64,000 bases of DNA from an uncultured Bacteroidales bacterium (GTDB lineage: Bacteria > Bacteroidota > Bacteroidia > Bacteroidales > WCHB1-69). Position 1 is the stretch's first letter, and each line of letters opens with the position of its first letter. The notes beneath the pieces are model-generated. The model was not told the DNA's origin. It searched no databases and saw only the letters and a list, made by a program, of their open reading frames with translations. The DNA is taken from positions 6,631 through 70,630 of the forward strand of contig CAMJXE010000005.1 of the NCBI GenBank assembly GCA_946409645.1, read 5' to 3'. The translations under genes and the position numbers were made by a program. This document shows, piece after piece, positions 40,219 to 57,422 of the stretch.

Positions 40219-41568
40219 TTACAGCAGAACTTCCGTCGGTGGGGTTGACGGAATGAAAAACATGACGTAGTATATCGGAAGATAAGTCACCTTCCCGTTT
40301 TGCTTGATTTCGCGCTCGTTCGACATTACAAAAGCCTGCTCGATGTGGTAGTCGGGAGTGGCGACAAAGGCATCCAACGAAGCGTGCTCATTGTAGTTTT
40401 TCCCCGATTTCACTTCGATGGGAAGAACCGAAAGCAGATCATAATCGTTCACAAGAAACTCGATCTCGCCTTTCTTCTTGTTGTCGTAATAGAACAACGG
40501 GAAGCCGTGCGCAACAAGTTCGCTGCAGACCACCGATTCATACACGGAACCCAGGTTTACGCTTTTCACATCATCCATAATGGCTGCTATGCTGTATTGA
40601 TAAAGCAGTCGGGTTAACAGTCCCACATCATTCAGATACAGTTTCAGCAAATTCTTGCTCTCTGATTCCACAAGAGGGAACCTTGGATTGGAAATCGCTT
40701 TTACTTCGTGACAGATACCGCTCTTTACAAGATACTCGAATTCAGCCTGATATTGCCAAGCCCTTGCCTGTTTCTTGTTCTCTATTTGGTTGAAATGAAC
40801 CCGTTTCTTCTTGTTTTCAAGATACGAAGGCACCAATTCGTACACCCGCTCAATAACCAGTTTGCGTTCTTTGTCATATTGACTTGCATCGCCCTTATAC
40901 AGATCATACACCTCCTTTTGAGCCGCCCTCACCTCAACGATGTTGTGTGTTTCAACGAACTTGTTCACGGCATCGGGTAGTCCTCCCACCAACAAATATT
41001 TCTTGAACAAATCCATCATTCGGTTGTGGAGTGGTTCGTCCAAGGCTACTTTTTTCAAAAAACACTGGCGTGTATGTTCGACAAACTCTTCTCCTACGTT
41101 GTTGGCCCACAAAAACTCCTCGAAATCAAGCTGGAACATGTTCACAACCTTGATTTTCCCGCCAGGCTTGGAGAGCGTTTCGTTAAGGGCAATTCCTAAT
41201 TGAGAACCGCTGACGATATAGGTGAATCTGTCTTCTTGGCGCAGGAACTTCAAGAGGGTGAGCATATCGGGATAGGCCTGTATCTCGTCCAAAAACACCA
41301 ACGTGTTCTCTTTTTGCCCCATACGGTCACCGGCAACAGTGCTGAGTCGAAGGTAAAAATCTTCTTTGTTTCTCGTACCTTCAAAGATCTTTTCACCATT
41401 TTTGTCTTCATACAAATCAATTTCAATATAGTTCTTGAAGCGTTTTTGCCCTTCATACCGAATGATAAAAGACTTCCCTATCTGACGAGCTCCATCAAGA
41501 ACCAGTATCTTATCAGACCCATTATCAAGATAATCAGCGATTTCCTTTTGAATCTTTCTTTTTAACAT
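40219..41568 (-). CDS. AAA+ ATPase (AAA_14-type) with DUF4143 / PD-(D/E)xK nuclease-like C-terminus: cassette A
   Basis: Walker A GARQIGKS, Walker B LVFLDEIQ, and C-terminal GEIEFLV..PIEVKSGKN (D/E..ExK). The start ATG 41568 gives MLKRKIQKEI. Confidence 0.85.
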   Translation of the reverse strand: MLKRKIQKEIADYLDNGSDKILVLDGARQIGKSFIIRYEGQKRFKNYIEIDLYEDKNGEKIFEGTRNKEDFYLRLSTVAGDRMGQKENTLVFLDEIQAYPDMLTLLKFLRQEDRFTYIVSGSQLGIALNETLSKPGGKIKVVNMFQLDFEEFLWANNVGEEFVEHTRQCFLKKVALDEPLHNRMMDLFKKYLLVGGLPDAVNKFVETHNIVEVRAAQKEVYDLYKGDASQYDKERKLVIERVYELVPSYLENKKKRVHFNQIENKKQARAWQYQAEFEYLVKSGICHEVKAISNPRFPLVESESKNLLKLYLNDVGLLTRLLYQYSIAAIMDDVKSVNLGSVYESVVCSELVAHGFPLFYYDNKKKGEIEFLVNDYDLLSVLPIEVKSGKNYNEHASLDAFVATPDYHIEQAFVMSNEREIKQNGKVTYLPIYYVMFFIPSTPPTEVLL

Positions 41569-41644
41569 ACACTTTTCCTTTAAATTCAAGTCTGCAAAAA
41601 TACACTTTTCCGAAAAACAATCGCATGAAATAATACACTTTTCC
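41567..41644 (-). repeat. Three direct copies of GGAAAAGTGTAT at 33-nt phasing in the leader of cassette A
   Basis: The plus strand reads atacacttttcc at 41567-41578 (overlapping the ATG), 41600-41611 (overlapping the -7 box) and 41633-41644. Confidence 0.85.
41595..41602 (-). promoter_or_regulatory. -7 box TATTTTTG for cassette A
   Basis: The plus strand reads caaaaata, 27 nt upstream of ATG 41568. Confidence 0.55.
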
Positions 41645-41674
41645 GTCAATCATACTTATTTCTACCAAAAATAA

Positions 41675-41973: not shown

Positions 41974-44322
41974 ATGAAAAGTTACCTCAAATTCCTCAGT
42001 CGCAACAAACTCTACACCGCCGTCGAGGCGGTGGGCCTGGTCGTGAGCCTCGCCTTCGTCATCCTAATCGGCAGTTACGTGACGCAAAATCTGGCCGTCG
42101 TGTATCAGCAACCCGGCCATGACCGCATTTACGGCCTCGGCACCACCTCCAACTTGGGGCTTTCGGTGTGGGACAAAGCCTCCATCGAAGCACAGGTGCC
42201 CGGAATTGAGGCTATCGCTCGCTTTGGCTATGCCACCGACGAGATTTCTTACCACAAAAAAAACTATGAAGCGGAAGTTCGTCAGGTGGATGCGGAGTTC
42301 TTCGAGATCTTTCCCCAGTTTAGCCTTGTGGAGGGCACAGCCATCCCGTTCGACGGCACCCATAACGCCATTGTCAGCTGGAGTTTCGCGAACAGTCTGG
42401 AGAAAAAGGGCGACCTTATAGGACAACGTTTCATCATAGAAGGAGAGGAGGAGGAATACATCATTTGCGGCATTATGGATGGTCCGGAAAACACCTTGGT
42501 TGCCCACATTGATGTATTGATTCCGGTGAATGAGAAATGGTGGGCTGGGCGCGAACCTTTCCATAGCGTGGATGGCACGAAAACCTTTATCCGCAGGATG
42601 GAAAACACCAACGAAGAAGATTTCCTGGCCCAGATACTTGAAGTTAGCCGTCAGAACTATGGATCGTGGCTCAACAAAGAACTTAAAGTATTCGGTTTCA
42701 AGGAGATGTTCTTCCGCACTGAGAACGATTATGTATTACGCAGCGGCAACCTCAGCAGCATACGGATATTGTCGGCGGTGGTGTTCCTTCTCCTTCTGTC
42801 GGCGCTCGTCAACTACGTCAACCTCAACATGGCGTTGGTGGGGAAACGCGCCAAGGAGATGGCCACCCGCAGGCTTTTGGGTGCGCAGAAACTTTCCGTC
42901 ATGGGCAAGTTTATCGTCGAATCCGTCTTGTTCACGGCGGTGTGTTTTGTTTTCGCCCTTTTGATGGCTCACGCCCTTGTTCCCGTGATGAACTGGCTGT
43001 TGGCCAGTGCAACACCGGAAAGCGACATTCAATTGCAGTTGTTGATGAAACCGGCTTACATAGTCGCGTATCTGAGTGGCATCCTGCTGTTAGGGACGCT
43101 CTCGGGTTGGTTGCCGGCACTGTATGCATCGCACTACGAACCCATCGATGTGGTGCGGGGCACCTTCCGCTATCACAGTAAGATGTGGCTCAACAAAATC
43201 TTCATCGTCTTCCAGAACGTCTTGTCTGTTATACTGATAGCCATTGCCATCGTGATGGAAGTGCAAATGTGGCACATGATCAAGCGGCCCGTCCATGCGA
43301 ACACGAAAGACTTGTTCTACATCAGCGGGATCTGGTATCCTGTGCCTCATTTGGCTACTTTAGCCGATGAAATAGCGCAACTGCCTTGTGTCAAAGAGGT
43401 TGGCATAGGGCGAGGATTTCCCGGAAGCGCGGCTTATTCTGTCGGCATACGTTTGGACGAGGAAGATTTTATCTTGAAGTTGCTCATCGGTGACAGCGCT
43501 TATTTTCGCATGTTAGGTTTCGAAGTGGTGGAAGATTTCGGCCATCCACTCGCCAACTCGCTCTGGCTTGGTGAACACGCCTTTGCCAAAAGCGGAGCTT
43601 CTGACACATCGGTTACCATGCCGAAAAAACTTGCAATCATGATGAATCAGGATGCCGACTACATCGGCGGAATGCTTAAAGATTTCCCGGGGGAGAGCGC
43701 GGCCTCTCCGGATGGCTTAAGCAACCAGAACGTGGGTGTACTGGTACAGGAAACCCGGAAGTTGGCATGGGCAAGCGATCTATTTGTCAGAACCATCGGC
43801 GACCATTTGGAGGCCCGGAAGATTATCCTGAAACAGTGCCAGCAGTGGGCGGAAAAGGATGGGGAACCCTTTGCGGGACAGGACGATTGCGGTTATGTGG
43901 ACGACCTGAATCTTAAGTCGTTGGAGCCAGCCAAGCGCACCGTCCGACTGTTGGAGATTTTCATGGGCTTGTCGGTGCTGCTGTCGCTGCTCGGTCTCGT
44001 CGCCATGAGCACCTACTATTGCGATGAAGGAAGCCACAGTATTGCCGTCCGCAAAGTCTTCGGCAGCGATGTCAACCGCGAGTTGCTGCGCACGGTGAAG
44101 AGTTATATGATGCTCGTCGGAATCGCCGCCATCATCGGAGCTCCCATTGCGGTTTGGCTTAGCGGCAAATACTTGGAACGTTTCGCCTACCGAATCGAAC
44201 ATTACGGCTGGATCATTGTCGTGGCGGTTGTGGTCACCCTGTTGCTGGCCTTCCTCTCGGTGTTATGGCAGACGTTACGCGCCGCGAGGACGAACCCTGC
44301 GGAGGCGTTGAAGAAAGAATGA
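41974..44322 (+). CDS. MacB-like ABC efflux permease with two FtsX modules (permease 1)
   Basis: MKSYLKFLSRNKLYTAVEAVGLVVSLAFVILIG.. at the N-terminus, two FtsX TM bundles each preceded by a periplasmic domain, and the ending ..LRAARTNPAEALKKE. Confidence 0.85.
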   Translation: MKSYLKFLSRNKLYTAVEAVGLVVSLAFVILIGSYVTQNLAVVYQQPGHDRIYGLGTTSNLGLSVWDKASIEAQVPGIEAIARFGYATDEISYHKKNYEAEVRQVDAEFFEIFPQFSLVEGTAIPFDGTHNAIVSWSFANSLEKKGDLIGQRFIIEGEEEEYIICGIMDGPENTLVAHIDVLIPVNEKWWAGREPFHSVDGTKTFIRRMENTNEEDFLAQILEVSRQNYGSWLNKELKVFGFKEMFFRTENDYVLRSGNLSSIRILSAVVFLLLLSALVNYVNLNMALVGKRAKEMATRRLLGAQKLSVMGKFIVESVLFTAVCFVFALLMAHALVPVMNWLLASATPESDIQLQLLMKPAYIVAYLSGILLLGTLSGWLPALYASHYEPIDVVRGTFRYHSKMWLNKIFIVFQNVLSVILIAIAIVMEVQMWHMIKRPVHANTKDLFYISGIWYPVPHLATLADEIAQLPCVKEVGIGRGFPGSAAYSVGIRLDEEDFILKLLIGDSAYFRMLGFEVVEDFGHPLANSLWLGEHAFAKSGASDTSVTMPKKLAIMMNQDADYIGGMLKDFPGESAASPDGLSNQNVGVLVQETRKLAWASDLFVRTIGDHLEARKIILKQCQQWAEKDGEPFAGQDDCGYVDDLNLKSLEPAKRTVRLLEIFMGLSVLLSLLGLVAMSTYYCDEGSHSIAVRKVFGSDVNRELLRTVKSYMMLVGIAAIIGAPIAVWLSGKYLERFAYRIEHYGWIIVVAVVVTLLLAFLSVLWQTLRAARTNPAEALKKE

Positions 44323-45249: not shown

Positions 45250-47592
45250 ATGTTTCGAAAAAGTAATCTCCTAATCCAGATACTCTCCCTCGGGGTGGGT
45301 CTTGCAATCGGCATCGTGCTGATTGCCAAAGTGTGCTTCGAGTTGTCGTACGACAGTTTCTATAAAGACGTGGACCGTATATATTGTATCCGTTCTGGTT
45401 ACGAACTACAGGGCGAATCCAGAGATTTCCCTCAGGTGAGTGGTGCGGTAGCATTTGGCTTCAAGGCAGAGGTGCCGGGAGTGGAAGAAGCCACTCGAAT
45501 GACTTTCTATTTCAATAGTGACCGTTATTTGGACGAGGATGGCAATGTCATCACCGGAAATCTCCGTTTAGCCGATTCATGCTTCTTCCGCGTTTTTGAC
45601 CGTCCCATTCTGGCTGGCAATCCGGAGAAAGTGCTGTCAGAGCCGCTATGTTTGATGGTGTCGGAGTCGTTTGCCCAAAAAATGGGTGGCGTGGAGGAAT
45701 GTATTGGCAAAATCATCTACAACGAGGATGTCCCTTTGTTGAAAATGACTATTGAGGGCGTATTCAAGGATTTCCCTAAAAATGGTTCTATAGACGCCGA
45801 CATTTTGCTGTCGATGGAGAGTTATTCAAAAAGCAGCACGGAGAACTGGGTCGGTAACGACCGCTATGTGGGATTTGTGAAATTGCAACAAGGTGTTGAT
45901 CCGCAATCGCTTAACGATGCCATCCGTAGGATGCAGGAGGCTCATCAGCCTTTGCAGGAGTTTGAGAAGAACGGCATGAAGCTGTGGTATTATCTTGCAC
46001 CATTTGGTAAAACCCACCTCAAAGAGTCTTCGGTGCATTCAATGGTAATACTGCTTTCCGTTATTGCAACAATGCTGATTGTCATCAGCTTACTCAACTA
46101 TATCCTGATCACAATTTCGTCTATGGTACATCGAGCCAAAGAAATTGGGGTACGAAAGTGCTATGGTGCGAACGCTTTCAGTATTTATGGATTATTGGCT
46201 CGGGAGTCGATAATACATCTATTATTGGCACTCGTTTTTGCAGCTGCCATTATTTTTGCCACAAAAGGATTGATACAGAACTTGTTGGGTGTGCCATTTG
46301 GGACATTACTTGTTCCCCAAAGCATTTGGACTATTGTGGCTGTGCTGTTGCTTGTGCTGTTCGTTTCCGTTTTCGTTCCTGCGCAGCTTTACATGCGCAT
46401 TCCCGTTTCGGTGGCCTTCCGCAATTATACGGAAAATTCGCGGCGATGGAAAATAGGACTGCTTGGCGTTCAGGTGTTTGTCAATGTATTTGTCATTTCG
46501 ATGCTGATGGTCATCGCTTCGCAATATCATAAAATGATGAACGACGACCCGGGCTACAATTATGAGAATGTGTTGTTTGTGGACATGTACGACGGAAATC
46601 AAGAGGCTCAACAACGTGTGGTGAATGCTCTTGGCCAACTTTCTGAAGTGACACACATTGCAGCAAGTTATGGTCTTCCTTACATTTGGTCGAATGGCGA
46701 CAACATATATCTTCCCGGTGATGATCGTGAATTGTTCAACGTGGCCGACCAATACGAGGCCACAGAGCAATTCTATGCTCTTTTCGGGATGGAGTTTGTT
46801 GACGGTCGCGCACCGGCCGATTCCAATGAAGTGGTGGTGAGCGAGAGTTTCGTGAAACGAATGAATGACTTCACGGACTGGAGCGATGGAGCGGTGGGGA
46901 AACAGATTATGATTACCGGACACGAAAACTCTTTGACAAATCTTAAATCATTCACGATCACAGGTGTTTACCGCGACTATCGTCTGGGTAGCCTCTTGGA
47001 TATGGATACCCGACCGAGCGTGCGTTTCTACGGCAGTTTGGAGGACGGAGAGTCTTATATGCCGCATCTGGTTTTCAAAGTGAATAAAATGGATGAAACC
47101 ACGATGGGGAAGCTGAAGGAAACCATTTCTAAGGCCCTTGATGGAAAAGATGTACAGTTGAAAGTATATGCGGACGAAATGCATTCAGCATACGAAGATA
47201 GTCGCAAGATGCGCAACACCGTTTTCATCGGTTCCATTTTTGCATTGATGATTGCCATGTTGGGCCTCATCGGTTTCATACGCGATGAGTCGAGTCGTCG
47301 GAGCAAAGAAATGGCCATCCGCAAAATTAACGGTGCTACAGAGAGAGATGTACTAAGTATTTTTGCTTGGGGTGTGTTGAAGTTATCTCTTATTATGTCG
47401 ATTTTTGCGTGTGTTTTCGCCTATTTCGTTGCCGACAAATGGCTTGAACAGTTCGCCGAGCGCATCGGCCTCTCGCCGTTGTATTTCATTTTTGGCGCAA
47501 CTGTGGTTCTTCTCATCGTAGCAGTCGTAGTCGTTATGAGTAGTGTCAGAATTGCGAAGACTAACCCTGCTGAGGCGTTGAAGAAGGAGTAG
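45250..47592 (+). CDS. MacB-like ABC efflux permease with two FtsX modules (permease 2)
   Basis: MFRKSNLLIQILSLGVGLAIGIVLIAKV.. at the N-terminus, ending ..AKTNPAEALKKE. The ORF-track start at 45172 (TTG) reads through REP-A. Confidence 0.85.
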   Translation: MFRKSNLLIQILSLGVGLAIGIVLIAKVCFELSYDSFYKDVDRIYCIRSGYELQGESRDFPQVSGAVAFGFKAEVPGVEEATRMTFYFNSDRYLDEDGNVITGNLRLADSCFFRVFDRPILAGNPEKVLSEPLCLMVSESFAQKMGGVEECIGKIIYNEDVPLLKMTIEGVFKDFPKNGSIDADILLSMESYSKSSTENWVGNDRYVGFVKLQQGVDPQSLNDAIRRMQEAHQPLQEFEKNGMKLWYYLAPFGKTHLKESSVHSMVILLSVIATMLIVISLLNYILITISSMVHRAKEIGVRKCYGANAFSIYGLLARESIIHLLLALVFAAAIIFATKGLIQNLLGVPFGTLLVPQSIWTIVAVLLLVLFVSVFVPAQLYMRIPVSVAFRNYTENSRRWKIGLLGVQVFVNVFVISMLMVIASQYHKMMNDDPGYNYENVLFVDMYDGNQEAQQRVVNALGQLSEVTHIAASYGLPYIWSNGDNIYLPGDDRELFNVADQYEATEQFYALFGMEFVDGRAPADSNEVVVSESFVKRMNDFTDWSDGAVGKQIMITGHENSLTNLKSFTITGVYRDYRLGSLLDMDTRPSVRFYGSLEDGESYMPHLVFKVNKMDETTMGKLKETISKALDGKDVQLKVYADEMHSAYEDSRKMRNTVFIGSIFALMIAMLGLIGFIRDESSRRSKEMAIRKINGATERDVLSIFAWGVLKLSLIMSIFACVFAYFVADKWLEQFAERIGLSPLYFIFGATVVLLIVAVVVVMSSVRIAKTNPAEALKKE

Positions 47593-47605
47593 TTACTTGA
47601 AAAGG

Positions 47606-48136: not shown

Positions 48137-48240
48137 CCTTAGAGCAGCCCCGGAGGGGCAAAACGCGCGCAGCGCAATTAACCCCACACAAGCGCAGCGC
48201 AGTGTGGGGCCCATCCCCAAGCGTCGCAGCGCAGTGTGGA
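48137..48240 (+). repeat. REP-B copy 6 (tail plus two hairpin modules)
   Basis: ccttagagcagccccggaggggcaaaacgcgcgcagcgcaattaaccccacacaagcgcagcgcagtgtggggcccatccccaagcgtcgcagcgcagtgtgga; 18 nt from ATG 48258. Confidence 0.85.
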
Positions 48241-48257
48241 ACCTAAAACCAAATGAT

Positions 48258-50648
48258 ATGAAAAGCTACCTCAAATTCCTCAGCAGAAACAAACTCTACA
48301 CCGCCGTTGAGGCGGTGGGACTAGTGGTGAGCCTCGCGTTCGTCATCCTGATTGGCAATTATGTGTATCAACAGTATTCCGTGGCCTACGGCAATCCTTA
48401 TCGAGATAGGATTTATGCCGTAGGATGCCAGGATTATATGTCGCTGTCGTGGTGGGACAAGGCCGTCTTTGAGGACAAGCTTCCCGAAGCCGAGGCAGTG
48501 TGCCGCATCAGCAATGCCGACGGGGACGGTAACATCACTGTTGGCGACGAACAGCCTGTCAGTGCCGTAGTCGCCGAGGCCGACCCGGAGCTTTTTGAAC
48601 TCTTTCCAAGTCTCATTTTGATTGACGGAAATCTCGACGAGTTCCGTCTCAAAGGGCATTGTCTCGTGTCTGAGTCACTTGCTAAAGGAGCTTTCCATGG
48701 GGATGCTATCGGTAAACCGGTCAAGGTCACTTATTTCGATGAAAAAAAAGAAGCCGTGGTTTGTGGCGTGTTTAAGGATGCCGCCAACTCGATGGTGCCT
48801 CACACCGATGTGCTTTTCAACCCCGAGTTCAACGAATGGTATGTATCGGGGGAAAAGGAGCCATTCACTTCCATTGGTTCGTATGTGACCTTGATAAAAG
48901 TCCACGAAGTCACCGACCGTGAGCAGCTTGCGAAGAAAGTTGAAGCCGTGGGGTTGCCCAATTATTCCGATGGTTTCGTGAGTGCCATGCCGATTTACAC
49001 GCTTCCGGAAGTCTTTTTCTCTGAAAACCAGTGGATGTTCAAGAAAGGCAACAAACAGGTGCTGCAAATGCTGACCGTGGTGGTGGTGCTGCTCTTGCTC
49101 TCGGCCATTTTCAACTATGTCAACCTCAACATGGCCCTTTCGGGGAAACGCGCCAAGGAGATGGCCACGAGGCGGCTTCATGGGGCCACGAAAGGACTAA
49201 TCGTAATAAAGTATATCCTTGAGTCCGTGGCGTTTACGGCAATATCTTTTGTTTTGGCATTCTTGGTGGCTTACGCTTTCCTCCCGATGATGAACAGTTT
49301 GCTGCATAGTGTTTCGGGCGGCGAATTTGGCATCGATGCACCGTTTGAGCAGTTTGTTCCTGTTCGATTTGAGTGGTCTGTGGGCATTGTGGCAGCTTAT
49401 CTTGTGGCGGTTGTGCTGTTGGGCACTTTGGCGGGCATCGCGCCTGCCGCCATTGCTTCGCGTTGCGATCCGATTGATGTGGTGCGTGGCACCTATCGGC
49501 TTCAAACAAAAAGGGTGTTCAGCAAGGTGTTCATTGTGTTCCAAAACACCATCACCATCGTCCTGATTGCCATGGCAATCCTGATGGAAGTGCAAATGCG
49601 CCACATGATGAACCGTCCCACTAACATGCGCTCGGAGGGCTTGTATTCGTTGCAATGCTGGGTGGCGGACTATTCCGATATAGCACCGCTCATCGACCGT
49701 TTGGAGAAGATCCCGAACGTGAAAGCAGTGAGCTACGGTCGTGGTTTTGCCGGGCAGATGAACATGGGCACCACTGTGATCACGCCCGAAGGCGAAAAGG
49801 TGAACTTGCAACTCATTCTATGCGATGAAACGTATTTCGATATGCTTGGTTTGCAGATTGTAGAGGATTTCGGCGTGCCAAAAACCAATTCAGTCTGGAT
49901 GTCGAAGACTTTGGCTGAAAAACTCGCTTTGAACGACTCAACGATGCATTATTACCCCCGACACATGCGCATCAATGGCTCCCGACCCGAGACCGTGGGC
50001 GGCATCTATGAAGACTTCCCGACACGGTCGGCAGCGGCCTCCGAACCCAACCAGTTTTCGGCAGTCATCATCGCCAAGGCGGAAGATCTGATTTGGGGCA
50101 ATGGCGTAATGGTGGATGTTTCTGGTGATTACAAAGAGACCGAAAAAGCCATTCTGCAAGCCTATGCCGACTATTCCGAGGAAAAGAACGGCACCTACGT
50201 GGAACCGGCGCAAAACGGCTATGTGCAAAACCTTAACAACTTGTTGCTTCGACCTGTAAAAATGGCCATGCGCCTGCTCGAACTGTTCATGCTGCTATCC
50301 GTCTTGATTTCGCTGCTCGGTCTCGTCGCCATGAGCACCTACTACAGCGGCGAGAACACCAAGAGCATCGCCGTGCGGAAAACCTTCGGCAGCGATGTGC
50401 GGCGCGAGCTGTGGCGCACCGTCAGAAGCTACATGCTGCTCGTGGGAATCGCGGCAATGATCGGTGTGCCTGTCGCTGTCTGGCTAAGCGGGAAGTACTT
50501 GGAACGTTTCGCCTACCGCATCGAGCATTACGGCTGGGTCTTCGCCGTGGCCGTCCTACTCACCGCGCTGATGGCCTTCCTCTCGGTGCTTTGGCAGACC
50601 CTCCGCGCCGCGCGGACGAACCCGGCGGAGGCGTTGAAGAAGGAATAG
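48258..50648 (+). CDS. MacB-like ABC efflux permease with two FtsX modules (permease 3)
   Basis: The N-terminal 33 aa are identical to permease 1. The TM bundles and C-terminal ~110 aa are closely similar, the periplasmic domains are divergent, and it ends ..WQTLRAARTNPAEALKKE. Confidence 0.85.
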   Translation: MKSYLKFLSRNKLYTAVEAVGLVVSLAFVILIGNYVYQQYSVAYGNPYRDRIYAVGCQDYMSLSWWDKAVFEDKLPEAEAVCRISNADGDGNITVGDEQPVSAVVAEADPELFELFPSLILIDGNLDEFRLKGHCLVSESLAKGAFHGDAIGKPVKVTYFDEKKEAVVCGVFKDAANSMVPHTDVLFNPEFNEWYVSGEKEPFTSIGSYVTLIKVHEVTDREQLAKKVEAVGLPNYSDGFVSAMPIYTLPEVFFSENQWMFKKGNKQVLQMLTVVVVLLLLSAIFNYVNLNMALSGKRAKEMATRRLHGATKGLIVIKYILESVAFTAISFVLAFLVAYAFLPMMNSLLHSVSGGEFGIDAPFEQFVPVRFEWSVGIVAAYLVAVVLLGTLAGIAPAAIASRCDPIDVVRGTYRLQTKRVFSKVFIVFQNTITIVLIAMAILMEVQMRHMMNRPTNMRSEGLYSLQCWVADYSDIAPLIDRLEKIPNVKAVSYGRGFAGQMNMGTTVITPEGEKVNLQLILCDETYFDMLGLQIVEDFGVPKTNSVWMSKTLAEKLALNDSTMHYYPRHMRINGSRPETVGGIYEDFPTRSAAASEPNQFSAVIIAKAEDLIWGNGVMVDVSGDYKETEKAILQAYADYSEEKNGTYVEPAQNGYVQNLNNLLLRPVKMAMRLLELFMLLSVLISLLGLVAMSTYYSGENTKSIAVRKTFGSDVRRELWRTVRSYMLLVGIAAMIGVPVAVWLSGKYLERFAYRIEHYGWVFAVAVLLTALMAFLSVLWQTLRAARTNPAEALKKE

Positions 50649-50690
50649 AAACCTTGGATCACCTTGCGAAAGGTATGACTTTTTGGGCAT

Positions 50691-50718
50691 TGTGAGATGC
50701 AAAATTTTGCGTCTCTAC
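50691..50718. repeat. REP-A copy 9 (variant: stem retained, A/T loop)
   Basis: tgtGAGATGCaaaattttGCGTCTCtac. Confidence 0.7.
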
Positions 50719-50755
50719 CGGCTGTATCCGTCGCCAAAACTAATCAAGAACTTTG

Positions 50756-50792
50756 AAAATGGCGATTTATATATCTTATATTTCGCCATTTT
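50756..50792 (+). promoter_or_regulatory. 10-bp-arm inverted repeat upstream of the cassette B promoter (possible operator)
   Basis: AAAATGGCGA-17 nt-TCGCCATTTT. A third partial copy, attttggcgg, is at 50808-50817. The word resembles the GAAAATGTGAT of cassette C. Confidence 0.45.
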
Positions 50793-50835
50793 AGGTTATT
50801 TTTATTTATTTTGGCGGACTATCTGAATAAAATTG

Positions 50836-50843
50836 TATCTTTG
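50836..50843 (+). promoter_or_regulatory. -7 box TATCTTTG for cassette B
   Basis: tgTATCTTTGca, 25 nt upstream of ATG 50868. Confidence 0.55.
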
Positions 50844-50867
50844 CACCTGTCATAAAACGGTATTGTT

Positions 50868-52289
50868 ATGGATAAAAATTTTATCGGCAGAAAACAGGAA
50901 ATCAAAATGTTACAAGACATTAAAGATTCTGGAAAAGCTGAATTTGTGGCCGTTTACGGGCGTCGGCGCGTGGGCAAGACTTATCTGATACAGCAATTCT
51001 TCAATTACAGCTTCGCCTTCTCTGCCACGGGCATCATAGAAGGCACCCGCGAAGAGGAACTCTTTGCCTTTACGAGTGCCATGATTGCTGTCGGTTATAC
51101 AGGACCCCAGCCCAAGACTTGGCTCGAAGCATTTGAAGCACTCAAATCTGTTTTAGAGAAACAGTCGCACAAAGGTCGTCTGGTCATCTATATTGACGAA
51201 CTCCCTTGCTTTGATACGCCCAAGTCAGGCTTTGTACGTGCTTTAGGGCATTTTTGGAACACCTGGGCCGCATTACGTAAAGATGTCATACTTGTTGTTT
51301 GCGGTTCCGCTACCTCTTGGATGATTGAGAACATTGTCAATGACCACGGTGGGCTCCATGATCGAACCACCCATACTATCTATTTGAGGCAGTTTACGTT
51401 AGCAGAAACGGAATCCTATCTGAAGACTAAGAAAATCCATTGGTCGCGTCAGATGATTGTTGAGACATACATGATGCTCGGGGGCATACCCTATTACCTC
51501 AGTTTGCTCAACCCTCAAGAGAGCCTTGCCCAAAACATCGACAGACTCTATTTTCATAAAAACGCTGAACTCGGACAGGAATACAAACGTCTTTATGCCT
51601 CTCTGTTCAAGTCGCCAGAATCTTACATTCGCATTGTGGAGCTGTTAGGCAAGAACAAGCAGGGGCTCACAAGAGGAGAAATTGCAGAAAATCTGAAAAT
51701 ATCATCCAGCGGCACACTGAGTAAACAGCTTGAAAATCTGGAATATTGCGACATTATTCGCCGTTATGTGACCAAGATGGGTGGCAAACCTAAAACCAAC
51801 GAGGCCTATTTCCAATTGGTGGACCTCTTCACGCTTTTCCATCTCACTTTCTCCAAGAAACTTACTACCGAAGACTATTGGGTGCAGCATCTCAACACTC
51901 CAGTCCTTAACACTTGGCAAGGACTTGCTTTCGAGCATGTCTGCATGGTACATATAAACCAGATTCGTCATGCCCTTGGCCTTGACAGAATTGCGGTGGA
52001 ATACTACTCTTGGCGAAACTCTAAAGTTCCTCGGGCACAAGTGGATATGATTATCGAGCGTGCTGACCGTCTCATTAACCTTTGCGAAATCAAATACACC
52101 CAATCGGAATACACCATTACTTCCGATGAGGATCTGAAAATCCGTAACCGTACGGCGGTATTCGTCCGAGAGACTAAGACCCGAAGCGGTATTCTTCCCA
52201 CTTGGATTACTCCTTACGGTCTTTCCCCGAATGAGTTTTCCTCAAATGTCCAATATCAGGTAACGATGGACGACCTGTTTGCAGGCTGA
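50868..52289 (+). CDS. Archaeal-type ATPase (ATPase_2) with DUF234 / PD-(D/E)xK-like C-terminus: cassette B
   Basis: FIGRKQEIKML.., Walker A GRRRVGKT, Walker B LVIYIDEL, and C-terminal AQVDMIIE..NLCEIKYT. Confidence 0.85.
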   Translation: MDKNFIGRKQEIKMLQDIKDSGKAEFVAVYGRRRVGKTYLIQQFFNYSFAFSATGIIEGTREEELFAFTSAMIAVGYTGPQPKTWLEAFEALKSVLEKQSHKGRLVIYIDELPCFDTPKSGFVRALGHFWNTWAALRKDVILVVCGSATSWMIENIVNDHGGLHDRTTHTIYLRQFTLAETESYLKTKKIHWSRQMIVETYMMLGGIPYYLSLLNPQESLAQNIDRLYFHKNAELGQEYKRLYASLFKSPESYIRIVELLGKNKQGLTRGEIAENLKISSSGTLSKQLENLEYCDIIRRYVTKMGGKPKTNEAYFQLVDLFTLFHLTFSKKLTTEDYWVQHLNTPVLNTWQGLAFEHVCMVHINQIRHALGLDRIAVEYYSWRNSKVPRAQVDMIIERADRLINLCEIKYTQSEYTITSDEDLKIRNRTAVFVRETKTRSGILPTWITPYGLSPNEFSSNVQYQVTMDDLFAG

Positions 52290-52299
52290 ATTGTCCGCT

Positions 52300-52350
52300 A
52301 CGTTGCGCGCCGCGAAGACGAATCCTGCGGAGGCGTTGAAGAAGGAGTAG
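52300..52350 (+). pseudogene. Orphan 3' end of a MacB-like permease gene (16 codons plus stop)
   Basis: acg ttg cgc gcc gcg aag acg aat cct gcg gag gcg ttg aag aag gag tag = TLRAAKTNPAEALKKE-stop. No permease body lies upstream. Confidence 0.7.
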
Positions 52351-52353
52351 GGA

Positions 52354-52385
52354 TGTATAGAGACGCAATGCATTGCGTTTCTACA
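52354..52385. repeat. REP-A copy 10 (variant loop); overlaps the stop codon of cassette C
   Basis: tgtatagagacgcaatgcattgcgtttctaca. Confidence 0.8.
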
Positions 52386-53721
52386 TCTTCTCCTTTAGGA
52401 AACGTTTCAGCAGGAAGGCGAGAAAATAGGGGAATGTGTAGAAGCTTCCGTTCCAACCGATGTTCTTGTATCCGAATTTGATGCCGTATTTGACTTCAGG
52501 ATAGGAATCCCATTTGATCAGGTTGTTCAGCGAAGCCGTCGTCCCGTCTTTGGCCTTCACCTCAACGGGAATCAGCGAATCGGCATCCCTTACAAAGAAA
52601 TCCATCTCTACGGCAGGATTGTCATGTTTATAGAAGTACAATTGTTCATAGCCCGACTTGCGCAACATCTCGCCGACCACATTCTCATAGACGGCACCTT
52701 TGTACGTTCCGAAGTTTCGATTGACCCTGAGATCGTCCTGTGCCTCCTCGTCTAACGAAGCAATCAGCAGACCTGTATCGTGGTAATAGATTTTGTAAAA
52801 ATCGGGATCATAATTACCTTTCAGCGGCAACTCCACGTTGTTTAGGCAATAACAGACATTGATCACGCCAGCCTCTTTCAACCACTCCACAGCACCGATA
52901 TACTCCCGGTTACGCGCACCTTTGGCAACCTTCGTGATCTGGAACTTTTTGTTTTCTTTCGCCAAGAATGTCGGGATGTGGCTATACACTGCAAGAACTT
53001 TTGCCTTGTCTGTCTCCTTGGCATATTTCGTGATGTCTTCCTCATAATCTTTCAGAAGCTGGCGTTGCAGTTTCAACGTTCCGCCGAAATGGCCGTTGTC
53101 AATGTACATTTTGACCACCTCCGGCATACCACCGAGTGTCATATAATCGCGGAAAATCCCCATATAGGTGTCCATCTCAAGCTGCGAGAAAGGCTTTAGT
53201 GAAAGCGTATGGGCAAAAAGGTCTTCGACCTGTTCCTTAGAATAGCCTTTGGCCCACAAAAATTCCTCGAAATCCATTGAAAACATGTCGTAATCTTCTT
53301 TGTAACCGACTGCATTCGATTCGATTTCTTCGTAATAGATGCCCATAAGCGAGCCCGAGCAAATCACATCGAAACGCCGGTCCTGACAAAATGACTTGAG
53401 TGAGGTAGCACAGTCGGGACATTTCTGCAACTCATCGAAAAACAGCAGAGTCCTGTTTGGGATAATCTTCCACGACGGTTCCAGAATGCTGATGTTCTTG
53501 ATAATCTGGTCCACCTCGTAGCCATCGTTGAAGATATTGCGGAATTTCTTCTGAAGCATGAAATTCATTTCGAGTACAGAATCGTAGTTTACACGTCCAA
53601 AAGCTCTGATAGATTCAGTTTTACCAATTTGTCTGGCTCCTTTCACTATCAAAGGTTTCCTTTTTGGGTTGCTCTTCCAGTCCGATAGGAATGTATCTAT
53701 TTTTCTTTCAAGTAGTTCCAT
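52381..53721 (-). CDS. AAA+ ATPase (AAA_14-type) with DUF4143 / PD-(D/E)xK nuclease-like C-terminus: cassette C
   Basis: Walker A GARQIGKT, Walker B LLFFDELQ, and C-terminal VEMDFFV..IPVEVKAKDG. Confidence 0.85.
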   Translation of the reverse strand: MELLERKIDTFLSDWKSNPKRKPLIVKGARQIGKTESIRAFGRVNYDSVLEMNFMLQKKFRNIFNDGYEVDQIIKNISILEPSWKIIPNRTLLFFDELQKCPDCATSLKSFCQDRRFDVICSGSLMGIYYEEIESNAVGYKEDYDMFSMDFEEFLWAKGYSKEQVEDLFAHTLSLKPFSQLEMDTYMGIFRDYMTLGGMPEVVKMYIDNGHFGGTLKLQRQLLKDYEEDITKYAKETDKAKVLAVYSHIPTFLAKENKKFQITKVAKGARNREYIGAVEWLKEAGVINVCYCLNNVELPLKGNYDPDFYKIYYHDTGLLIASLDEEAQDDLRVNRNFGTYKGAVYENVVGEMLRKSGYEQLYFYKHDNPAVEMDFFVRDADSLIPVEVKAKDGTTASLNNLIKWDSYPEVKYGIKFGYKNIGWNGSFYTFPYFLAFLLKRFLKEKM

Positions 53722-53729
53722 GTTTTATT

Positions 53730-53806
53730 ATCACATTTTCGGCTGCAAAAATAATAAAAAAATCACATTTTCAGATATTCAACTTGAAAAAAAATCACAT
53801 TTTCAG
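53730..53806 (-). repeat. Three direct copies of YYGAAAATGTGAT at 32-nt phasing in the leader of cassette C
   Basis: The plus strand reads atcacattttc(g/a)g at 53730-53742, 53762-53774 and 53794-53806. Confidence 0.85.
53746..53753 (-). promoter_or_regulatory. -7 box TATTTTTG for cassette C
   Basis: The plus strand reads caaaaata, 25 nt upstream of ATG 53721, between word copies 1 and 2 (counting from the ATG). Confidence 0.55.
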
Positions 53807-53820
53807 ACTTCTCCGTCCTT

Positions 53821-53877
53821 TGGCAAACGCGCCGCGCCGCGAAGACGAATCCGGCGGAGGCGTTGAAGAAAGAGTAG
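53821..53877 (+). pseudogene. Second orphan 3' end of a MacB-like permease gene (18 codons plus stop)
   Basis: tgg caa acg cgc cgc gcc gcg aag acg aat ccg gcg gag gcg ttg aag aaa gag tag = WQTRRAAKTNPAEALKKE-stop. Confidence 0.7.
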
Positions 53878-53945
53878 GAACGTGGTGCCCCGGTTTGTGT
53901 TTCCAAGTAATTTGAAACAACACGCATTGGTGTCATAATATTTTG

Positions 53946-53953: not shown

Positions 53954-54026
53954 CTGAAGTGAATTGAATGTCATTGAAAGCTCGTAGCATCGTCATAGTA
54001 AGCTTGTTGCGTCGATGATGAGAGCA

Positions 54027-55626: not shown

Positions 55627-55815
55627 CTAACTTCTAACTATTTTTCTCACCACGCCCCCCCCTCGAAGTTGATCTTCACGAGGTAAGTGTCGGAGAGATA
55701 GGGCGAGAGGTCGATTTCGCGGTGGTCACCTTGCGCAGTTTGAGAGCCGCCACGGTAAACCCGGTGAAGTCATTGAGGAACGAATAACCCTTACCCCCTT
55801 GGAAATTGTAGCGTT
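55627..55815 (-). pseudogene. Remnant of the C-terminus of a T9SS-sorted protein (frame-shifted)
   Basis: The minus strand reads ..YNFQGGKGYSFLNDFTGFTVAALKLRK / GDHREIDLSPYLSDTYLVKINFEGG.., broken by one frameshift. A C8 tract (55655-55662) would restore ..GGGVVRKIVRS-stop with one more C. Confidence 0.3.
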
Positions 55816-55959
55816 GCGAAGATTGGTTATGCTATAGTATTGAAATACAATCAATTTCGCAATAATAGAGATGAATTATTCATTCAGAAAAATGGGCTTA
55901 AAGCCAAATATTCGTTCAGAAAAACGGTTTAGATGGTTGTTTTTTCGTTGGAAAAAGTG

Positions 55960-55967
55960 TATTTTTG
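55960..55967 (+). promoter_or_regulatory. -7 box TATTTTTG for cassette D
   Basis: Within ggaaaaagtgTATTTTTGcgg, the same word as in the cassette A leader; 22 nt upstream of ATG 55989. Confidence 0.55.
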
Positions 55968-55988
55968 CGGCGTTAATTCGTTTGAAAA

Positions 55989-57422
55989 ATGCTGAGAAGA
56001 AAAATTGAAAATACCCTTCGGGAATGGAAAGACACACCGAATCATTTGCCGCTTGTCATTATGGGAATTCGCCAATGCGGAAAGACCTTTATCGTCAGAA
56101 AATTTGCAGAGGAAAATTACAAGTATGTCTATTACATGAACTTTATTAAGCAACCCAAACGCATTGGTGCATTTTTGGGATCCAAAGAAGTTGATGCGAT
56201 TCTTCTGGAGCTTTCCACCCAAATAAAAGGAGCTAATTTCGTTCCCGGACAAACCTGTTTCATCTTTGATGAAATTCAAGACTGTCCAGATGCCCGTACT
56301 TCTTTGAAGTTTTTCAAAGAGGATGGACGTTTCGATGTTATTGCAACAGGCTCCCTTTTGGGCGTTTTAGGTTATGGCGAGAAGAAAAAGAAGTTGAAAA
56401 GAAAACATAAGGATGATATGCAGTTGGGGAAAAATTCTGTTCCTGTTGGTTTTGAAGACATCGTGCAGATGTATCCGCTTGATTTCGAAGAGTTCCTTTG
56501 GGCAAATGGAATCTCAGAAGATGTGATTGTGTTTCTTAAAGACTGTTTGTCAGACGAAAAACCAGTGCCTGTTGGAATACATCTCACTATGAATAATCTT
56601 CTGAATCGTTATGTCGCTGTTGGCGGTTTGCCCGCAGCTGTAAACAAGTTGCTGGATACCAGTAATATGAGCAAGGTTGATGCCGTCCTCCGTAGGATTT
56701 TGAAAGAATACAAAGATGACATGGTGAAATATGCTAACGATGACGACAAACCCTACATACGAGGGTGCTTTGATTCCATTACCAAACAGCTTGCCAAAGA
56801 CTATAAAAAGTTTCAATACAATCTCATCAAAAAAGATGGTCGTGCGGAAGATTATGCCGGATCACTTCAATGGTTGGAAGATGCTGGAATGATCCGTCGC
56901 TGCTATAATACTGAAGCGACGGGTTTGCCAATGGAAGGAAATGCTATCGAATCAACCTTTAAAGTGTATGTCACTGACATCGGTTTACTTACGACTATGC
57001 TTGGCGGTTCCACACGAAATGACATCATACAAGGAAACTTGGGCGGTTTCAAGGGTGCTATTTACGAGAATTTGATGGCAGATACGCTTCACAAGAAAGA
57101 ACAGGCCTTGTACTATTATCGCAAGGAATCCGGTATGGAACTGGACTTTTTGATTAGCTACAAGGGCGAATGTGTTCCTGTTGAAGTCAAGGCCAAGACC
57201 TCCAAAGCCAAGAGCCTTTCAACTGCACTGAAGCATCCAGATAAGTATCATATATATCACGCCATAAAGTTTGGTGATTTCAACATCGGCCGCGAAGGTC
57301 CTTTGTTGACACTTCCGAACTATATGCAGTTCCTTTTGGAGTTGGAACCCGAAGAAATCATTTTGGAGCATATTGATGCAGAAGAACTTAACCGCATGAC
57401 AAAAGAGCTGTTGGAGAAATAG
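55989..57422 (+). CDS. AAA+ ATPase (AAA_14-type) with DUF4143 / PD-(D/E)xK nuclease-like C-terminus: cassette D
   Basis: Walker A GIRQCGKT, Walker B CFIFDEIQ, and C-terminal MELDFLI..VPVEVKAKTS. Confidence 0.85.
   Translation: MLRRKIENTLREWKDTPNHLPLVIMGIRQCGKTFIVRKFAEENYKYVYYMNFIKQPKRIGAFLGSKEVDAILLELSTQIKGANFVPGQTCFIFDEIQDCPDARTSLKFFKEDGRFDVIATGSLLGVLGYGEKKKKLKRKHKDDMQLGKNSVPVGFEDIVQMYPLDFEEFLWANGISEDVIVFLKDCLSDEKPVPVGIHLTMNNLLNRYVAVGGLPAAVNKLLDTSNMSKVDAVLRRILKEYKDDMVKYANDDDKPYIRGCFDSITKQLAKDYKKFQYNLIKKDGRAEDYAGSLQWLEDAGMIRRCYNTEATGLPMEGNAIESTFKVYVTDIGLLTTMLGGSTRNDIIQGNLGGFKGAIYENLMADTLHKKEQALYYYRKESGMELDFLISYKGECVPVEVKAKTSKAKSLSTALKHPDKYHIYHAIKFGDFNIGREGPLLTLPNYMQFLLELEPEEIILEHIDAEELNRMTKELLEK

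What the first reader, a model, noticed from the sequence alone, without database searches (positions are those of the whole stretch)
50592..53877. The permease 3' end occurs three times and brackets two ATPase-nuclease cassettes (att-like layout)
The last 19 codons of permease 3 (50592-50648, WQTLRAARTNPAEALKKE-stop) recur twice as orphan, in-frame, stop-terminated copies. One is at 52300-52350 (TLRAAKTNPAEALKKE-stop) and one at 53821-53877 (WQTRRAAKTNPAEALKKE-stop). Neither has a permease body upstream. Each interval between copies holds exactly one self-contained gene. The first is the DUF234-type ATPase on the plus strand, whose stop lies 10 nt before copy 2. The second is the AAA_14/DUF4143 ATPase on the minus strand, whose repeat-bearing leader ends 14 nt before copy 3. 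Copies 2 and 3 share the codons AAG ACG AAT, which permeases 1 and 3 lack. Cassette B is additionally flanked by REP-A variants at 50691 and 52354. The layout repeat-cassette-repeat-cassette-repeat is what tandem site-specific integration into a gene's 3' end produces, when the element supplies a replacement 3' end. However, no integrase or transposase is present in the window. The alternative is that two further permease paralogues were each replaced down to their last 51-57 bp, which would also need an explanation for such uniform breakpoints.
Basis: partly seen in the sequence, partly recalled or inferred. Interest (0 to 1): 0.78.

Follow-up and report, generated by a model that had tools for sequence, protein, structure and literature searches.

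The report
Defence-gene cassettes flanked by duplicated gene-ends
Two single-gene ATPase-nuclease "candidate phage-defence" cassettes sit one after the other behind an efflux-pump gene, each bracketed by a spare copy of that gene's last 50-70 bases; related strains lack one or both cassettes, so these very common genes are gained and lost as discrete units by recombination inside a duplicated gene end.

Summary
The FtsX-permease 3' end occurs five times in the window: three real ends and two orphans, at 52300-52350 and 53806-53877. I found a further orphan of another permease subfamily at 55722-55787.

The genes between the copies are PADLOC candidates PDC-S27 (B) and PDC-S01 (C). Two more PDC-S01 cassettes (A, D) lie in the same operon.

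Metagenome contigs show that C plus orphan tail 3 is a 99%-identical unit. It lies beside at least five different permease ends and three different right flanks.
- B and C occur independently of each other.
- One allele (L118) lacks both, and carries a single tail collinear with both copies that flank C.

The behaviour extends beyond permeases. 7 of 59 PDC-S01 homologues are flanked by other duplicated host segments, against 2 of 212 controls. One filled/empty pair shows a perfect 43-bp duplication. The cassettes share a three-iteron leader and invariant Walker and D..ExK motifs.

The att-like reading is partly supported. These are discrete cassettes bounded by duplicated gene ends, but there is no integrase, the duplicated sequence differs between lineages, and one orphan is a plain deletion remnant. 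The recombination enzyme is unknown.

The parts
50581..50648 (+). Genuine 3' end (tail 1) of FtsX/MacB-type permease 3 (ORF 48204-50648).
50649..50721 (+). Variable spacer between the permease 3 stop and the conserved start of cassette B. It contains REP-like palindrome REP-A (50694-50717). This stretch differs between contexts of B (window/L091, L090, L095, L115), so it is host-derived intergenic sequence.
50722..52302 (+). Cassette B. It comprises a leader with a 40-nt inverted repeat (50732-50816), the ATPase_2 (DUF234-type) plus nuclease gene 50868-52289, and about 12 nt after the stop (..GCTAC). PADLOC assigns it to PDC-S27.
   Evidence: I3; E 1e-185.
52303..52350 (+). Orphan tail 2. It is 48 nt including the stop, identical to the end of the FtsX772 permease of L105, and linked to the right end of B in every context that has it.
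52354..52385 (.). REP-like palindrome between the stop of tail 2 and the stop of ATPase C. In other contigs it follows the stop of a full permease in the same way.
   Evidence: (I10).
52381..53721 (-). Cassette C gene: AAA_14 + DUF4143 (PD-(D/E)XK) ATPase-nuclease, PADLOC PDC-S01. Walker A, Walker B and D374..E387-V-K389 are conserved.
   Evidence: (E 1e-150).
53722..53807 (-). Leader of cassette C. Three direct repeats (ATCACATTTTC on the + strand) lie at about 53730, 53762 and 53794, spaced 32 nt. This is the family-wide iteron array at -19/-51/-83.
53806..53877 (+). Orphan tail 3, about 70 nt including the stop. Its 5' part and breakpoint are constant and linked to C in all contexts. Its 3' part and the downstream flank vary.
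44255..44322 (+). Genuine tail of permease 1.
47525..47592 (+). Genuine tail of permease 2. Its downstream sequence (TTACTTGAAAAGG..) follows orphan tail 2 in L091/L093 and follows FtsX772 in L105.
40219..41660 (-). Cassette A, a PDC-S01 gene with a leader carrying three GGAAAAGTGTAT repeats. It is inserted between the HlyD-type gene and permease 1, and is absent at this position in L090, L095 and L118.
55722..55787 (+). Orphan tail of another FtsX subfamily (..VNPVKSLRNE*). It is the last 66 nt of a 797-aa permease that is intact in L090.
55860..57422 (+). Cassette D, a PDC-S01 gene 55989-57422 with a repeat-bearing leader. L093 carries a different ATPase_2 cassette in the same slot.
   Evidence: (D14).

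Best explanation
B and C are compact, self-contained gene cassettes. Each consists of a leader with repeated protein-binding-type motifs plus one AAA+ ATPase / PD-(D/E)XK nuclease gene, about 1.5 kb in all. They belong to the families PADLOC calls PDC-S27 and PDC-S01.

Each cassette is linked to a copy of the last 48-70 nt of an FtsX permease gene, together with part of the REP hairpin that follows it. Recombination between that cassette-linked copy and a resident permease end places the cassette behind the intact permease. It leaves a second, orphan copy on the far side, giving attL/attR-like hybrids as in Campbell-type integration.

Two such events at one site gave tail1-B-tail2-C-tail3. C arrived at a permease end, and B then entered the tail to its left.

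FtsX tails are conserved among many paralogues, so the same cassette-plus-tail modules, and whole permease genes, are reshuffled among tails within and between strains.

Shown:
- the discrete cassette units;
- the linkage of orphan tails to cassettes;
- presence/absence alleles;
- duplication of a single-copy target.

Inferred:
- the order of events;
- that exchange occurs inside the tail;
- the enzyme. My preferred reading is homology-dependent recombination, possibly stimulated by the cassette's own nuclease, rather than a dedicated integrase.
For: 1. The exact ATPase C protein is on 9 further contigs. The block window 52351-53878 is 99% identical in them.
   - On its left it abuts the stop codon of at least five different permease ends: L002; L004/5/7; L006; L009, which is permease 3; and tail 2 in the window.
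   - On its right the orphan tail always starts at the same breakpoint, CTTCTCCGTCCTTTGGCAAACGC.
   - That orphan is followed by three different flanks: the window, L002/3/5/L090/L116, and L008.
2. Empty allele L118 reads permease1-ABC-permease2'-355-aa gene. L118 5799-5963 aligns to the left side of C in L005 and L118 5878-6509 to the right side. An 86-nt segment that is single in L118 is therefore duplicated around C, while the permease stays intact in L004 (1316 nt, 87%).
3. B and C are independent units.
   - L009 has a permease-3-type tail directly followed by C.
   - L091-94 and L115 have B plus the 48-nt orphan, followed by the native downstream sequence of an FtsX772/permease-2-type gene.
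   - Tail 2 is 48/48 identical to the FtsX772 tail of L105 but differs at about 9 of 48 positions from permease 3's own tail. It therefore came with B and was not copied locally.
4. L098 has B preceded by only the last 28 nt of a tail, in an unrelated context.
5. The behaviour is general.
   - Direct repeats of at least 35 bits flank 7 of 59 PDC-S01 homologues, against 2 of 212 shifted controls.
   - They usually cover the end of the neighbouring gene, in both geometries seen for B and C.
   - L082 (filled) and L119 (empty), 98.6-99.4% identical, show a 1521-nt cassette between perfect 43-bp copies of a segment that is single in the empty site.
   - L023 carries a cassette 98% identical to that of L022, with 209 and 92 nt of L022-type flank. 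This leaves an orphan 77-nt gene end, while L023's native copy is only 80% identical.
6. The unit is defined. Homology between cassettes in different contexts runs from about -83/-120 to the stop codon. The iteron array lies at -83/-51/-19 in 32 of 78 loci, against a background of 0.05 per 200 nt.
7. The Walker motifs and D..ExK are invariant in 80 homologues.
8. The cassettes are about 10% lower in G+C than the operon.
Against: - No circular or excised form, and no recombination event, was observed. Everything is inferred from static alleles.
- Most alleles are short metagenome contigs. The tails are repeats at which assemblers break or could mis-join, so the fine mosaic of SNPs inside tails may be partly artefactual.
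- The empty allele L118 is only 87-95% identical to the filled ones, so it is a relative and not an isogenic strain.
- Many 'different left neighbours' of C share one right flank. They could arise from deletions or permease swaps by tail-tail recombination, not from C moving.
- In L090 the left end of B lies 23 nt after the ABC gene with no tail. This needs an extra deletion.
- The 90%-identical B lineage (L095-L114) has no orphan tail.
- Cassettes A and D have no flanking duplication.
- Only about 12% of homologues show one.
- Homologous recombination across 50-90 nt of 70-90% identity is inefficient.
- The L082 lineage is always at one site, so new-site insertion was not caught in the act.
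Confidence: 0.6

Rival explanations
1. Ordinary decay. The operon once had more tandem permease paralogues. ATPase genes landed in or next to them, and deletions removed the permease bodies, leaving 48-70-nt 3' stumps. The orphans are pseudogene remnants, not products of integration.
For: - The orphan at 55722-55787 is exactly this: the 797-aa permease is intact in L090.
- L093 keeps a longer stump of the same gene, at least 111 nt.
- In L090 permease 2' is absent and B-C occupies its place, while L118 has it.
- Tail 2 in L091 is followed by the native downstream sequence of an FtsX772-type gene, as if B had replaced that gene's body.
Against: - L004/5/7 keep the orthologue of L118's permease intact and still have C plus the orphan tail, so nothing was lost there.
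- The C-linked and B-linked breakpoints are identical across contexts. That means a single origin followed by spread, not repeated deletions.
- No long stump (hundreds of nt) is seen anywhere.
- The same bracketed architecture occurs at a single-copy gene with a perfect 43-bp duplication and a clean empty site.
Confidence: 0.15
2. True transposition. The ATPase-nuclease, or a partner, makes widely staggered cuts, and every insertion creates a new long target-site duplication of 24-90 bp.
For: - The perfect 43-bp duplication in L082 against a single copy in L119.
- A perfect 24-nt repeat in L026.
- Duplicated sequences are unrelated between lineages.
- The repeats abut the cassette ends, at +1 after the stop in L018 and L049.
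- The nuclease catalytic residues are invariant.
Against: - For B and C the two copies flanking a cassette differ by 10-30% and derive from different permease types, while the cassette itself is 99% identical between sites. The duplication was therefore not made afresh at each site.
- Duplication length varies three-fold.
- There are no terminal inverted repeats.
- The L082 lineage, at 100% and 96% protein identity, is always at one site.
- The repeat in L018 includes 42 nt of the ATPase ORF itself.
Confidence: 0.12
3. Cis-mobilisable cassettes serviced in trans. A tyrosine or serine integrase encoded elsewhere in the genome, for example on an integrative element that targets FtsX 3' ends, recombines the tails. 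B and C are integrase-less hitchhikers accreted in tandem, as with CIMEs next to ICEs.
For: - The att-like hybrid copies.
- Tandem accretion.
- The host ORF is preserved.
- The L098 breakpoint falls next to the point where the C-linked constant part ends (..GACGAA|YCC..).
Against: - No integrase within 64 kb, nor on any fetched locus next to a tail.
- The duplicated segments of other lineages are unrelated sequences, so each would need its own integrase.
- SNP patterns suggest exchange points at several positions in the tail.
- This was not tested genome-wide.
Confidence: 0.1

Closest known systems
Integrative islands and cis-mobilisable elements (CIMEs) at the 3' ends of tRNA or protein genes
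   Same: Direct repeats formed by the target gene's 3' end bracket the insert. The host gene stays intact. Elements can accrete in tandem, giving repeat-element-repeat-element-repeat. Empty sites carry one copy.
   Different: The inserts here are about 1.5 kb with one gene. They carry no integrase and none is nearby. The repeated segment differs between related cassettes. The two copies can come from different paralogues.
Campbell-type (single-crossover) integration of a circle that carries a short host-homologous segment
   Same: It predicts exactly a duplication of the homologous segment on both sides, hybrid copies, and precise loss by recombination between the copies.
   Different: No circular form was observed. 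The homology is very short (24-94 nt) and often imperfect. How a cassette first acquires a host segment is unexplained.
Integron gene cassettes
   Same: Single-gene units are arrayed head to tail and separated by a recurring recombination sequence. REP-like palindromes sit at cassette borders.
   Different: There is no IntI and no attI. The cassettes have their own promoter-type leaders and lie in either orientation. The recurring sequence is a coding 3' end, not an attC.
PADLOC phage-defence candidates PDC-S01 (AAA_14 + DUF4143) and PDC-S27 (ATPase_2/DUF234-type)
   Same: The four ATPase genes of the window match these models end to end (E 1e-143 to 1e-185).
   Different: Published surveys treat them as abundant, unvalidated single-gene defence candidates (PMC12988326, PMC13356809). 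None of the papers my searches returned mentions a defined cassette structure, iterons, flanking duplications or presence/absence alleles.
Free-standing homing endonuclease genes
   Same: A small selfish-looking unit encodes a nuclease and spreads between otherwise collinear genomes together with short pieces of flank (L022/L023).
   Different: Homing leaves no duplication of the target. Cleavage specificity for the tails is untested. The ATPase-nuclease architecture is not one of the known homing families.

Membership tests
PADLOC PDC-S01 | Full-length match to a PDC-S01 profile; AAA_14 plus DUF4143 domains | tested here: met
   A, C and D give E 1e-171, 1e-150 and 1e-143 over nearly the whole profile. 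Pfam finds AAA_14 and DUF4143 above the gathering scores.
PADLOC PDC-S27 | Full-length match to a PDC-S27 profile; ATPase_2 domain | tested here: met
   B gives E 1e-185 over profile positions 3-473 of 474. Pfam ATPase_2 scores 60 bits against a cutoff of 33.
PADLOC PDC-S01 / PDC-S27 | Protection against phage | not testable with these tools
   The literature says validation is pending (PMC12988326).
Site-specific integrative element (tyrosine/serine recombinase type) | Direct repeats at both ends formed from the target gene's 3' end, with one copy in the empty site | tested here: met
Site-specific integrative element (tyrosine/serine recombinase type) | Integrase gene inside or next to the element | tested here: not met
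   No Phage_integrase, Resolvase or Recombinase hit in the cassettes or in any large ORF of the 64-kb window. The rest of the genome was not available.
Site-specific integrative element (tyrosine/serine recombinase type) | A fixed crossover core | tested here: inconclusive
   The constant C-linked part ends near ..GACGAA and the L098 breakpoint is adjacent. SNP mosaics suggest several exchange points. The data come from short contigs.
Insertion sequence / transposon | Transposase (DDE, HUH, serine or tyrosine) | tested here: not met
   Only AAA+ and PD-(D/E)XK domains were found.
Insertion sequence / transposon | Terminal inverted repeats | tested here: not met
   None at the cassette ends.
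Insertion sequence / transposon | Target-site duplication of fixed length, made anew at each site | tested here: not met
   Lengths range from 24 to 94 nt. The copies flanking B and C are of different paralogue origin.
Integron cassette array | intI and attI next to the array; attC at each cassette; promoterless cassettes in one orientation | tested here: not met
   No integrase is present. B and C are in opposite orientations and each has its own leader. The recurring element is a coding tail. The REP palindromes were not tested for attC features.
REP/BIME-type repeats | Short palindromes dispersed in intergenic regions | tested here: met
   11 half-site matches in the window against 2.7 expected, after several unrelated genes. 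They are a host feature at the cassette borders and are not specific to the cassettes.

The most novel reading that the evidence does not exclude
PDC-S01 and PDC-S27 genes, among the most frequent 'defence candidates' in prokaryotic genomes, would be self-mobilising single-gene elements. The AAA+ ATPase / PD-(D/E)XK nuclease binds the three iterons of its own leader. It then cuts or pairs DNA so that the 1.5-kb unit integrates next to a gene end and duplicates 25-90 bp of it. That would be a mobile-element class with no transposase or integrase of any known family. It would also mean their abundance partly reflects selfish spread, not defence.
Probability: 0.2. Interest if true: 0.9.

Novelty: new variant of a known kind. 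Interest (0 to 1): 0.7.

Why it matters
PDC-S01 is reported as the most frequent single 'defence' locus in rumen genomes and the fourth most common across prokaryotes, yet it is unvalidated (PMC13356809, PMC12988326). How such single genes move is not addressed in any of the papers my searches returned.

This locus and its relatives show four things:
- The genes come as a sharply bounded unit of three iterons plus the ORF.
- They are bracketed by duplicated host gene ends.
- They are present or absent between close relatives.
- They can stack in tandem.

That gives a concrete, testable model for the turnover of single-gene defence candidates. It also warns that counts of these genes may be inflated by element-like spread.

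For the host, the conserved permease tail acts as a junction at which permease genes and foreign cassettes are swapped without breaking the operon.

Tried and rejected
- Exact-protein look-ups of B, D and the response regulator found nothing. Strain-level alleles had to come from C and from 90-96% relatives of B.
- I first took the many left neighbours of C as proof that C hops between loci. I rejected that as proof once L090, L002, L003, L005 and L116 turned out to share one right flank. Tail-tail deletions could give the same picture. Only the window, L008 and the L090 type are clearly distinct right flanks.
- I assumed the window ORF 54071-54949 was the homologue of the 355-aa gene that follows tail 3 elsewhere. 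It is not.
- I looked for permease tails next to 80 homologues in reference genomes and found none. The tail is therefore not a family-wide target.
- I treated '..GGAGTAG' at the left of C as cassette-derived. I dropped this because the native FtsX772 tail in L105 ends the same way.
- Viral contigs hold no close relative of B.
- No PDB sequence relative of B or C exists.
- No Rfam family was found in 39-58 kb, and no tRNA gene lies at the cassette borders.
- The sigma-70 and terminator scan was uninformative for a Bacteroidales-type genome.
- Testing whether the L082 lineage sits at several sites gave one site only. De novo transposition is neither shown nor excluded.
- I did not run structure prediction. 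Domain content was already clear from Pfam, PADLOC and the conserved motifs.

Full report
**1. The observation**

The region lies in a MacAB/TolC-type efflux operon. Its gene order is:
- OEP (37312-38688) and a HlyD-type adaptor (38689-39975);
- FtsX/MacB permease 1 (41950-44322);
- an ABC ATPase (44440-45159);
- permease 2 (to 47592) and permease 3 (48204-50648);
- further downstream, a sigma-54 response regulator (57444-58787) and a histidine kinase.

The permease 3' end occurs five times (family D2). A 20-nt core matches five times, against 0.00 expected. Three copies end real permeases. Two are orphans, at 52300-52350 and 53806-53877, both in frame and stop-terminated. Between the copies lie an ATPase_2 gene (B, plus strand) and an AAA_14/DUF4143 gene (C, minus strand).

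Copy 3 is about 15 nt longer than stated.

I add three things.
- Two more AAA_14/DUF4143 genes sit in the same operon: A (40219-41649) and D (55989-57422).
- A fourth orphan tail, from a different permease subfamily, lies at 55722-55787.
- All four ATPase genes are about 45% G+C in a 55% operon.

No integrase or transposase domain occurs in any large ORF of the window. The rest of the window is ordinary chromosome, with PolA, MutS, PBP2 and RodA.

**2. What the genes are**

A, C and D match PADLOC PDC-S01. B matches PDC-S27, end to end. Both families are AAA+ ATPases fused to PD-(D/E)XK nuclease domains (PMC3424549; PMC12988326).

In 80 homologues of C, the Walker A (GxxxxGKT) and Walker B (FFDE) motifs and D374..E387-V-K389 are invariant. 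No solved structure is related by sequence.

The literature treats them as very abundant, unvalidated defence candidates. My searches turned up nothing on how they move.

**3. Cassette C is a unit that carries orphan tail 3**

The exact C protein is on nine other contigs. The block from the palindrome after the permease stop, through C and its leader, to the end of the orphan tail is 99% identical in all of them.

To its left it abuts the stop codon of different full permease ends: L002; L004/5/7; L006; and L009, which is the permease-3 type.

To its right the orphan tail always begins at the same breakpoint. The sequence after its stop codon falls into three classes: the window; L002/3/5/L090/L116; and L008.

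The 5' part of tail 3 therefore travels with C.

**4. An empty site**

L118 is a JGI contig, 95% identical to L090 across permease 1 and the ABC gene. It reads HlyD-permease 1-ABC-permease 2'-355-aa gene, with no B and no C.

The orthologue of its permease 2' is intact to the left of C in L004 (1316 nt, 87%) and in L005 and L007. Its 355-aa gene lies to the right of C in L002, L003 and L005.

L118 5799-5963 aligns to the left side of C in L005, and L118 5878-6509 to the right side. An 86-nt stretch, made of tail plus the first arm of the following REP, is thus single in L118 and duplicated around C. The motif CCGTCCT just upstream of TGGCAAAC is shared by L118's tail and by orphan tail 3, but not by the left-hand tails. 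This fits the orphan being the original resident copy.

**5. Cassette B is a second, independent unit with its own orphan**

The conserved B unit runs from about 50722 to 12 nt after its stop (..GCTAC). The 73 nt between the permease stop and 50722, including REP-A, differ among contexts.

- In the window, L001 and L090, B is followed by tail 2 and then C.
- In L091-L094 and L115, B is followed by the same 48-nt orphan, then the sequence that natively follows permease 2 / FtsX772 (TTACTTGAAAA..), then the 355-aa gene, with no C.
- L009 shows a permease-3-type tail directly followed by C, with no B.

Tail 2 is 48/48 identical to the FtsX772 tail in L105 but differs at about 9 of 48 positions from permease 3's own tail. 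It therefore came with B and was not copied from permease 3.

A 90%-identical B lineage sits between two permeases without an orphan. In L098 only the last 28 nt of a tail precede it, in an unrelated context.

**6. The locus is a patchwork joined at tails**

L090 belongs to a related species. It has no cassette A, lacks permeases 2 and 3, and carries the B-tail2-C-tail3 block 23 nt after the ABC gene. It keeps intact the 797-aa permease whose stump is the window's orphan at 55722.

L093 has a different ATPase_2 cassette in the slot of D.

Permease 2 of the window and FtsX772 of L105 are different genes with the same downstream sequence. Whole permease genes are therefore also exchanged with junctions at the tail.

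It cannot explain section 4.

**7. The behaviour is not special to permeases**

None of the 80 homologues of C from reference genomes (61-91% identity) is next to a permease tail. Yet direct repeats of at least 35 bits flank 7 of 59 of them, against 2 of 212 shifted control intervals.

The repeats are unrelated in sequence and 24-94 nt long. They usually cover the end of the neighbouring gene.
- In L018 and L049 the neighbour converges on the cassette, as with C.
- In L034 and L082 the neighbour is co-directional, as with B.

For L082 I found the empty site. L119 is 98.6-99.4% identical on both sides and holds one copy of a 43-bp segment, the last 37 nt of a 231-aa gene plus AAAAAA. That segment flanks the 1521-nt cassette perfectly in L082. 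The cassette lies between the stop codon and the terminator hairpin.

Proteins 100% and 96% identical to that cassette are always at this same site. The two repeat copies share lineage-specific SNPs.

L022 and L023 carry the same cassette (98%) together with 209 and 92 nt of L022-type flank. This leaves an orphan 77-nt gene end in L023, whose native copy is only 80% identical.

**8. The unit**

Homology between cassettes in different contexts runs from about -83 to -120 up to the stop codon.

The leader holds direct repeats of GAAAATGTGAT-like motifs at -83, -51 and -19, spaced 32-33 nt. They occur in 32 of 78 loci, against a background of 0.05 per 200 nt. C has this array at 53730, 53762 and 53794. 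A and D have variants.

The first repeat coincides with the 5' limit of conservation.

**9. Explanation**

The best-supported reading has four parts.
- These are discrete cassettes linked to a copy of a host gene end.
- Recombination between that copy and the resident gene end inserts the cassette behind an intact gene and leaves the second copy as an orphan.
- Recombination between the two copies can remove the cassette again.
- Two successive events give the triple-tail layout.

The tail of FtsX permeases is conserved among many paralogues, so it offers many landing sites and lets modules be reshuffled.

I favour homology-dependent exchange, possibly stimulated by the cassette's nuclease, for three reasons: no integrase is present, the repeated segment differs between lineages, and exchange points look variable.

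This step is inferred and not shown. The rivals are decay of extra paralogues, true transposition with long target duplications, and a trans-acting integrase. They keep some weight, for the reasons given in their entries.

Caveats:
- Most alleles are short metagenome contigs that break at the repeats.
- The empty allele for C comes from a relative.
- Only a minority of homologues show a duplication.
- A and D show none.

**10. Comparison and novelty**

The architecture is that of integrase-less, att-flanked cassettes, as in CIME-like elements or Campbell-type integration. The cargo and unit are new: a 1.5-kb iteron-plus-ATPase-nuclease gene of two families that are among the commonest 'defence candidates'.

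I rate it a new variant of a known kind. If the protein itself proves to be the recombination enzyme, it would be a new class of mobile element.

Noticed in passing
window 55722-55787: A fourth orphan permease tail (VVTLRSLRAATVNPVKSLRNE*) from a different FtsX subfamily lies just upstream of cassette D. The 797-aa gene is intact in L090 (16523-16588 is the homologous end). L093 keeps a longer stump.
   Followed up: yes
window 53730-53806; L010-L089 upstream regions: PDC-S01 genes carry three direct repeats (GAAAATGTGAT-like) at -83/-51/-19 with 32-33-nt spacing, in 32 of 78 loci. The first repeat marks the 5' limit of cassette conservation. They may be operators for autoregulation or binding sites used in mobility.
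   Followed up: partly
window 40219-41660: Cassette A (PDC-S01, minus strand) lies between the HlyD-type gene and permease 1. L090, L095 and L118 have no gene there. No flanking duplication was found.
   Followed up: partly
window 54012-54146: A dense array of 11-nt periodic repeats (TCGAATATCAA-like, 4 or more copies) forms 66-nt inverted arms, just upstream of an unannotated ORF (54071/54218-54949, no Pfam hit). It replaces the 355-aa gene found at this position in relatives.
   Followed up: no
window 54970-55609: A two-gene module (107-aa ORF plus a 118-aa HTH_3 protein), toxin-antitoxin-like in layout, occupies the place of the body of the 797-aa permease.
   Followed up: no
window 47597-48140: Small minus-strand genes lie between permeases 2 and 3: a 107-aa ORF and a truncated DUF5674 gene. 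L091 has the full 112-aa DUF5674 gene and about 170 nt more.
   Followed up: partly
window 41891-41958, 48143-48210, 44434-44451: A second intergenic repeat family (AGCAGCCYCGGAGRGGCAA..CCCCAYACAAGCG..GTGTGGGG) occurs upstream of permease 1, permease 3 and the ABC gene, and between OEP and HlyD in L090.
   Followed up: no
window 2425, 9388, 11873, 12000, 37300, 45186-45210, 50708, 52358-52383: The REP-like palindrome family (TAGAGACGC..GCGTCTCTA) is dispersed after unrelated genes across the window: 11 half-sites against 2.7 expected.
   Followed up: partly
L018 5752-5844 and 7294-7387: The direct repeat flanking this cassette is 94 nt (92.6%). It includes the last 42 nt of the ATPase ORF plus 52 nt of host sequence, as if a cassette/host junction had been duplicated or an earlier cassette had been replaced.
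   Followed up: partly
L022 5792-7433 and L023 5792-7433, 9314-9390: The same cassette (98% identical) sits in two species, together with 209 and 92 nt of donor-type flank. L023 thereby holds an orphan 77-nt end of a 346-aa gene, 1.9 kb from its native copy (80% identical).
   Followed up: partly
L090 9694-9781: In this relative the left end of cassette B starts 23 nt after the ABC gene stop, with no permease tail on that side. No model here accounts for this junction without an extra deletion.
   Followed up: partly
L093 3556-4692: A different, shorter ATPase_2 gene (378 aa) occupies the slot between the NPVKSLRNE tail and the response regulator. The window and L090 have cassette D there, so this slot also turns over.
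   Followed up: no
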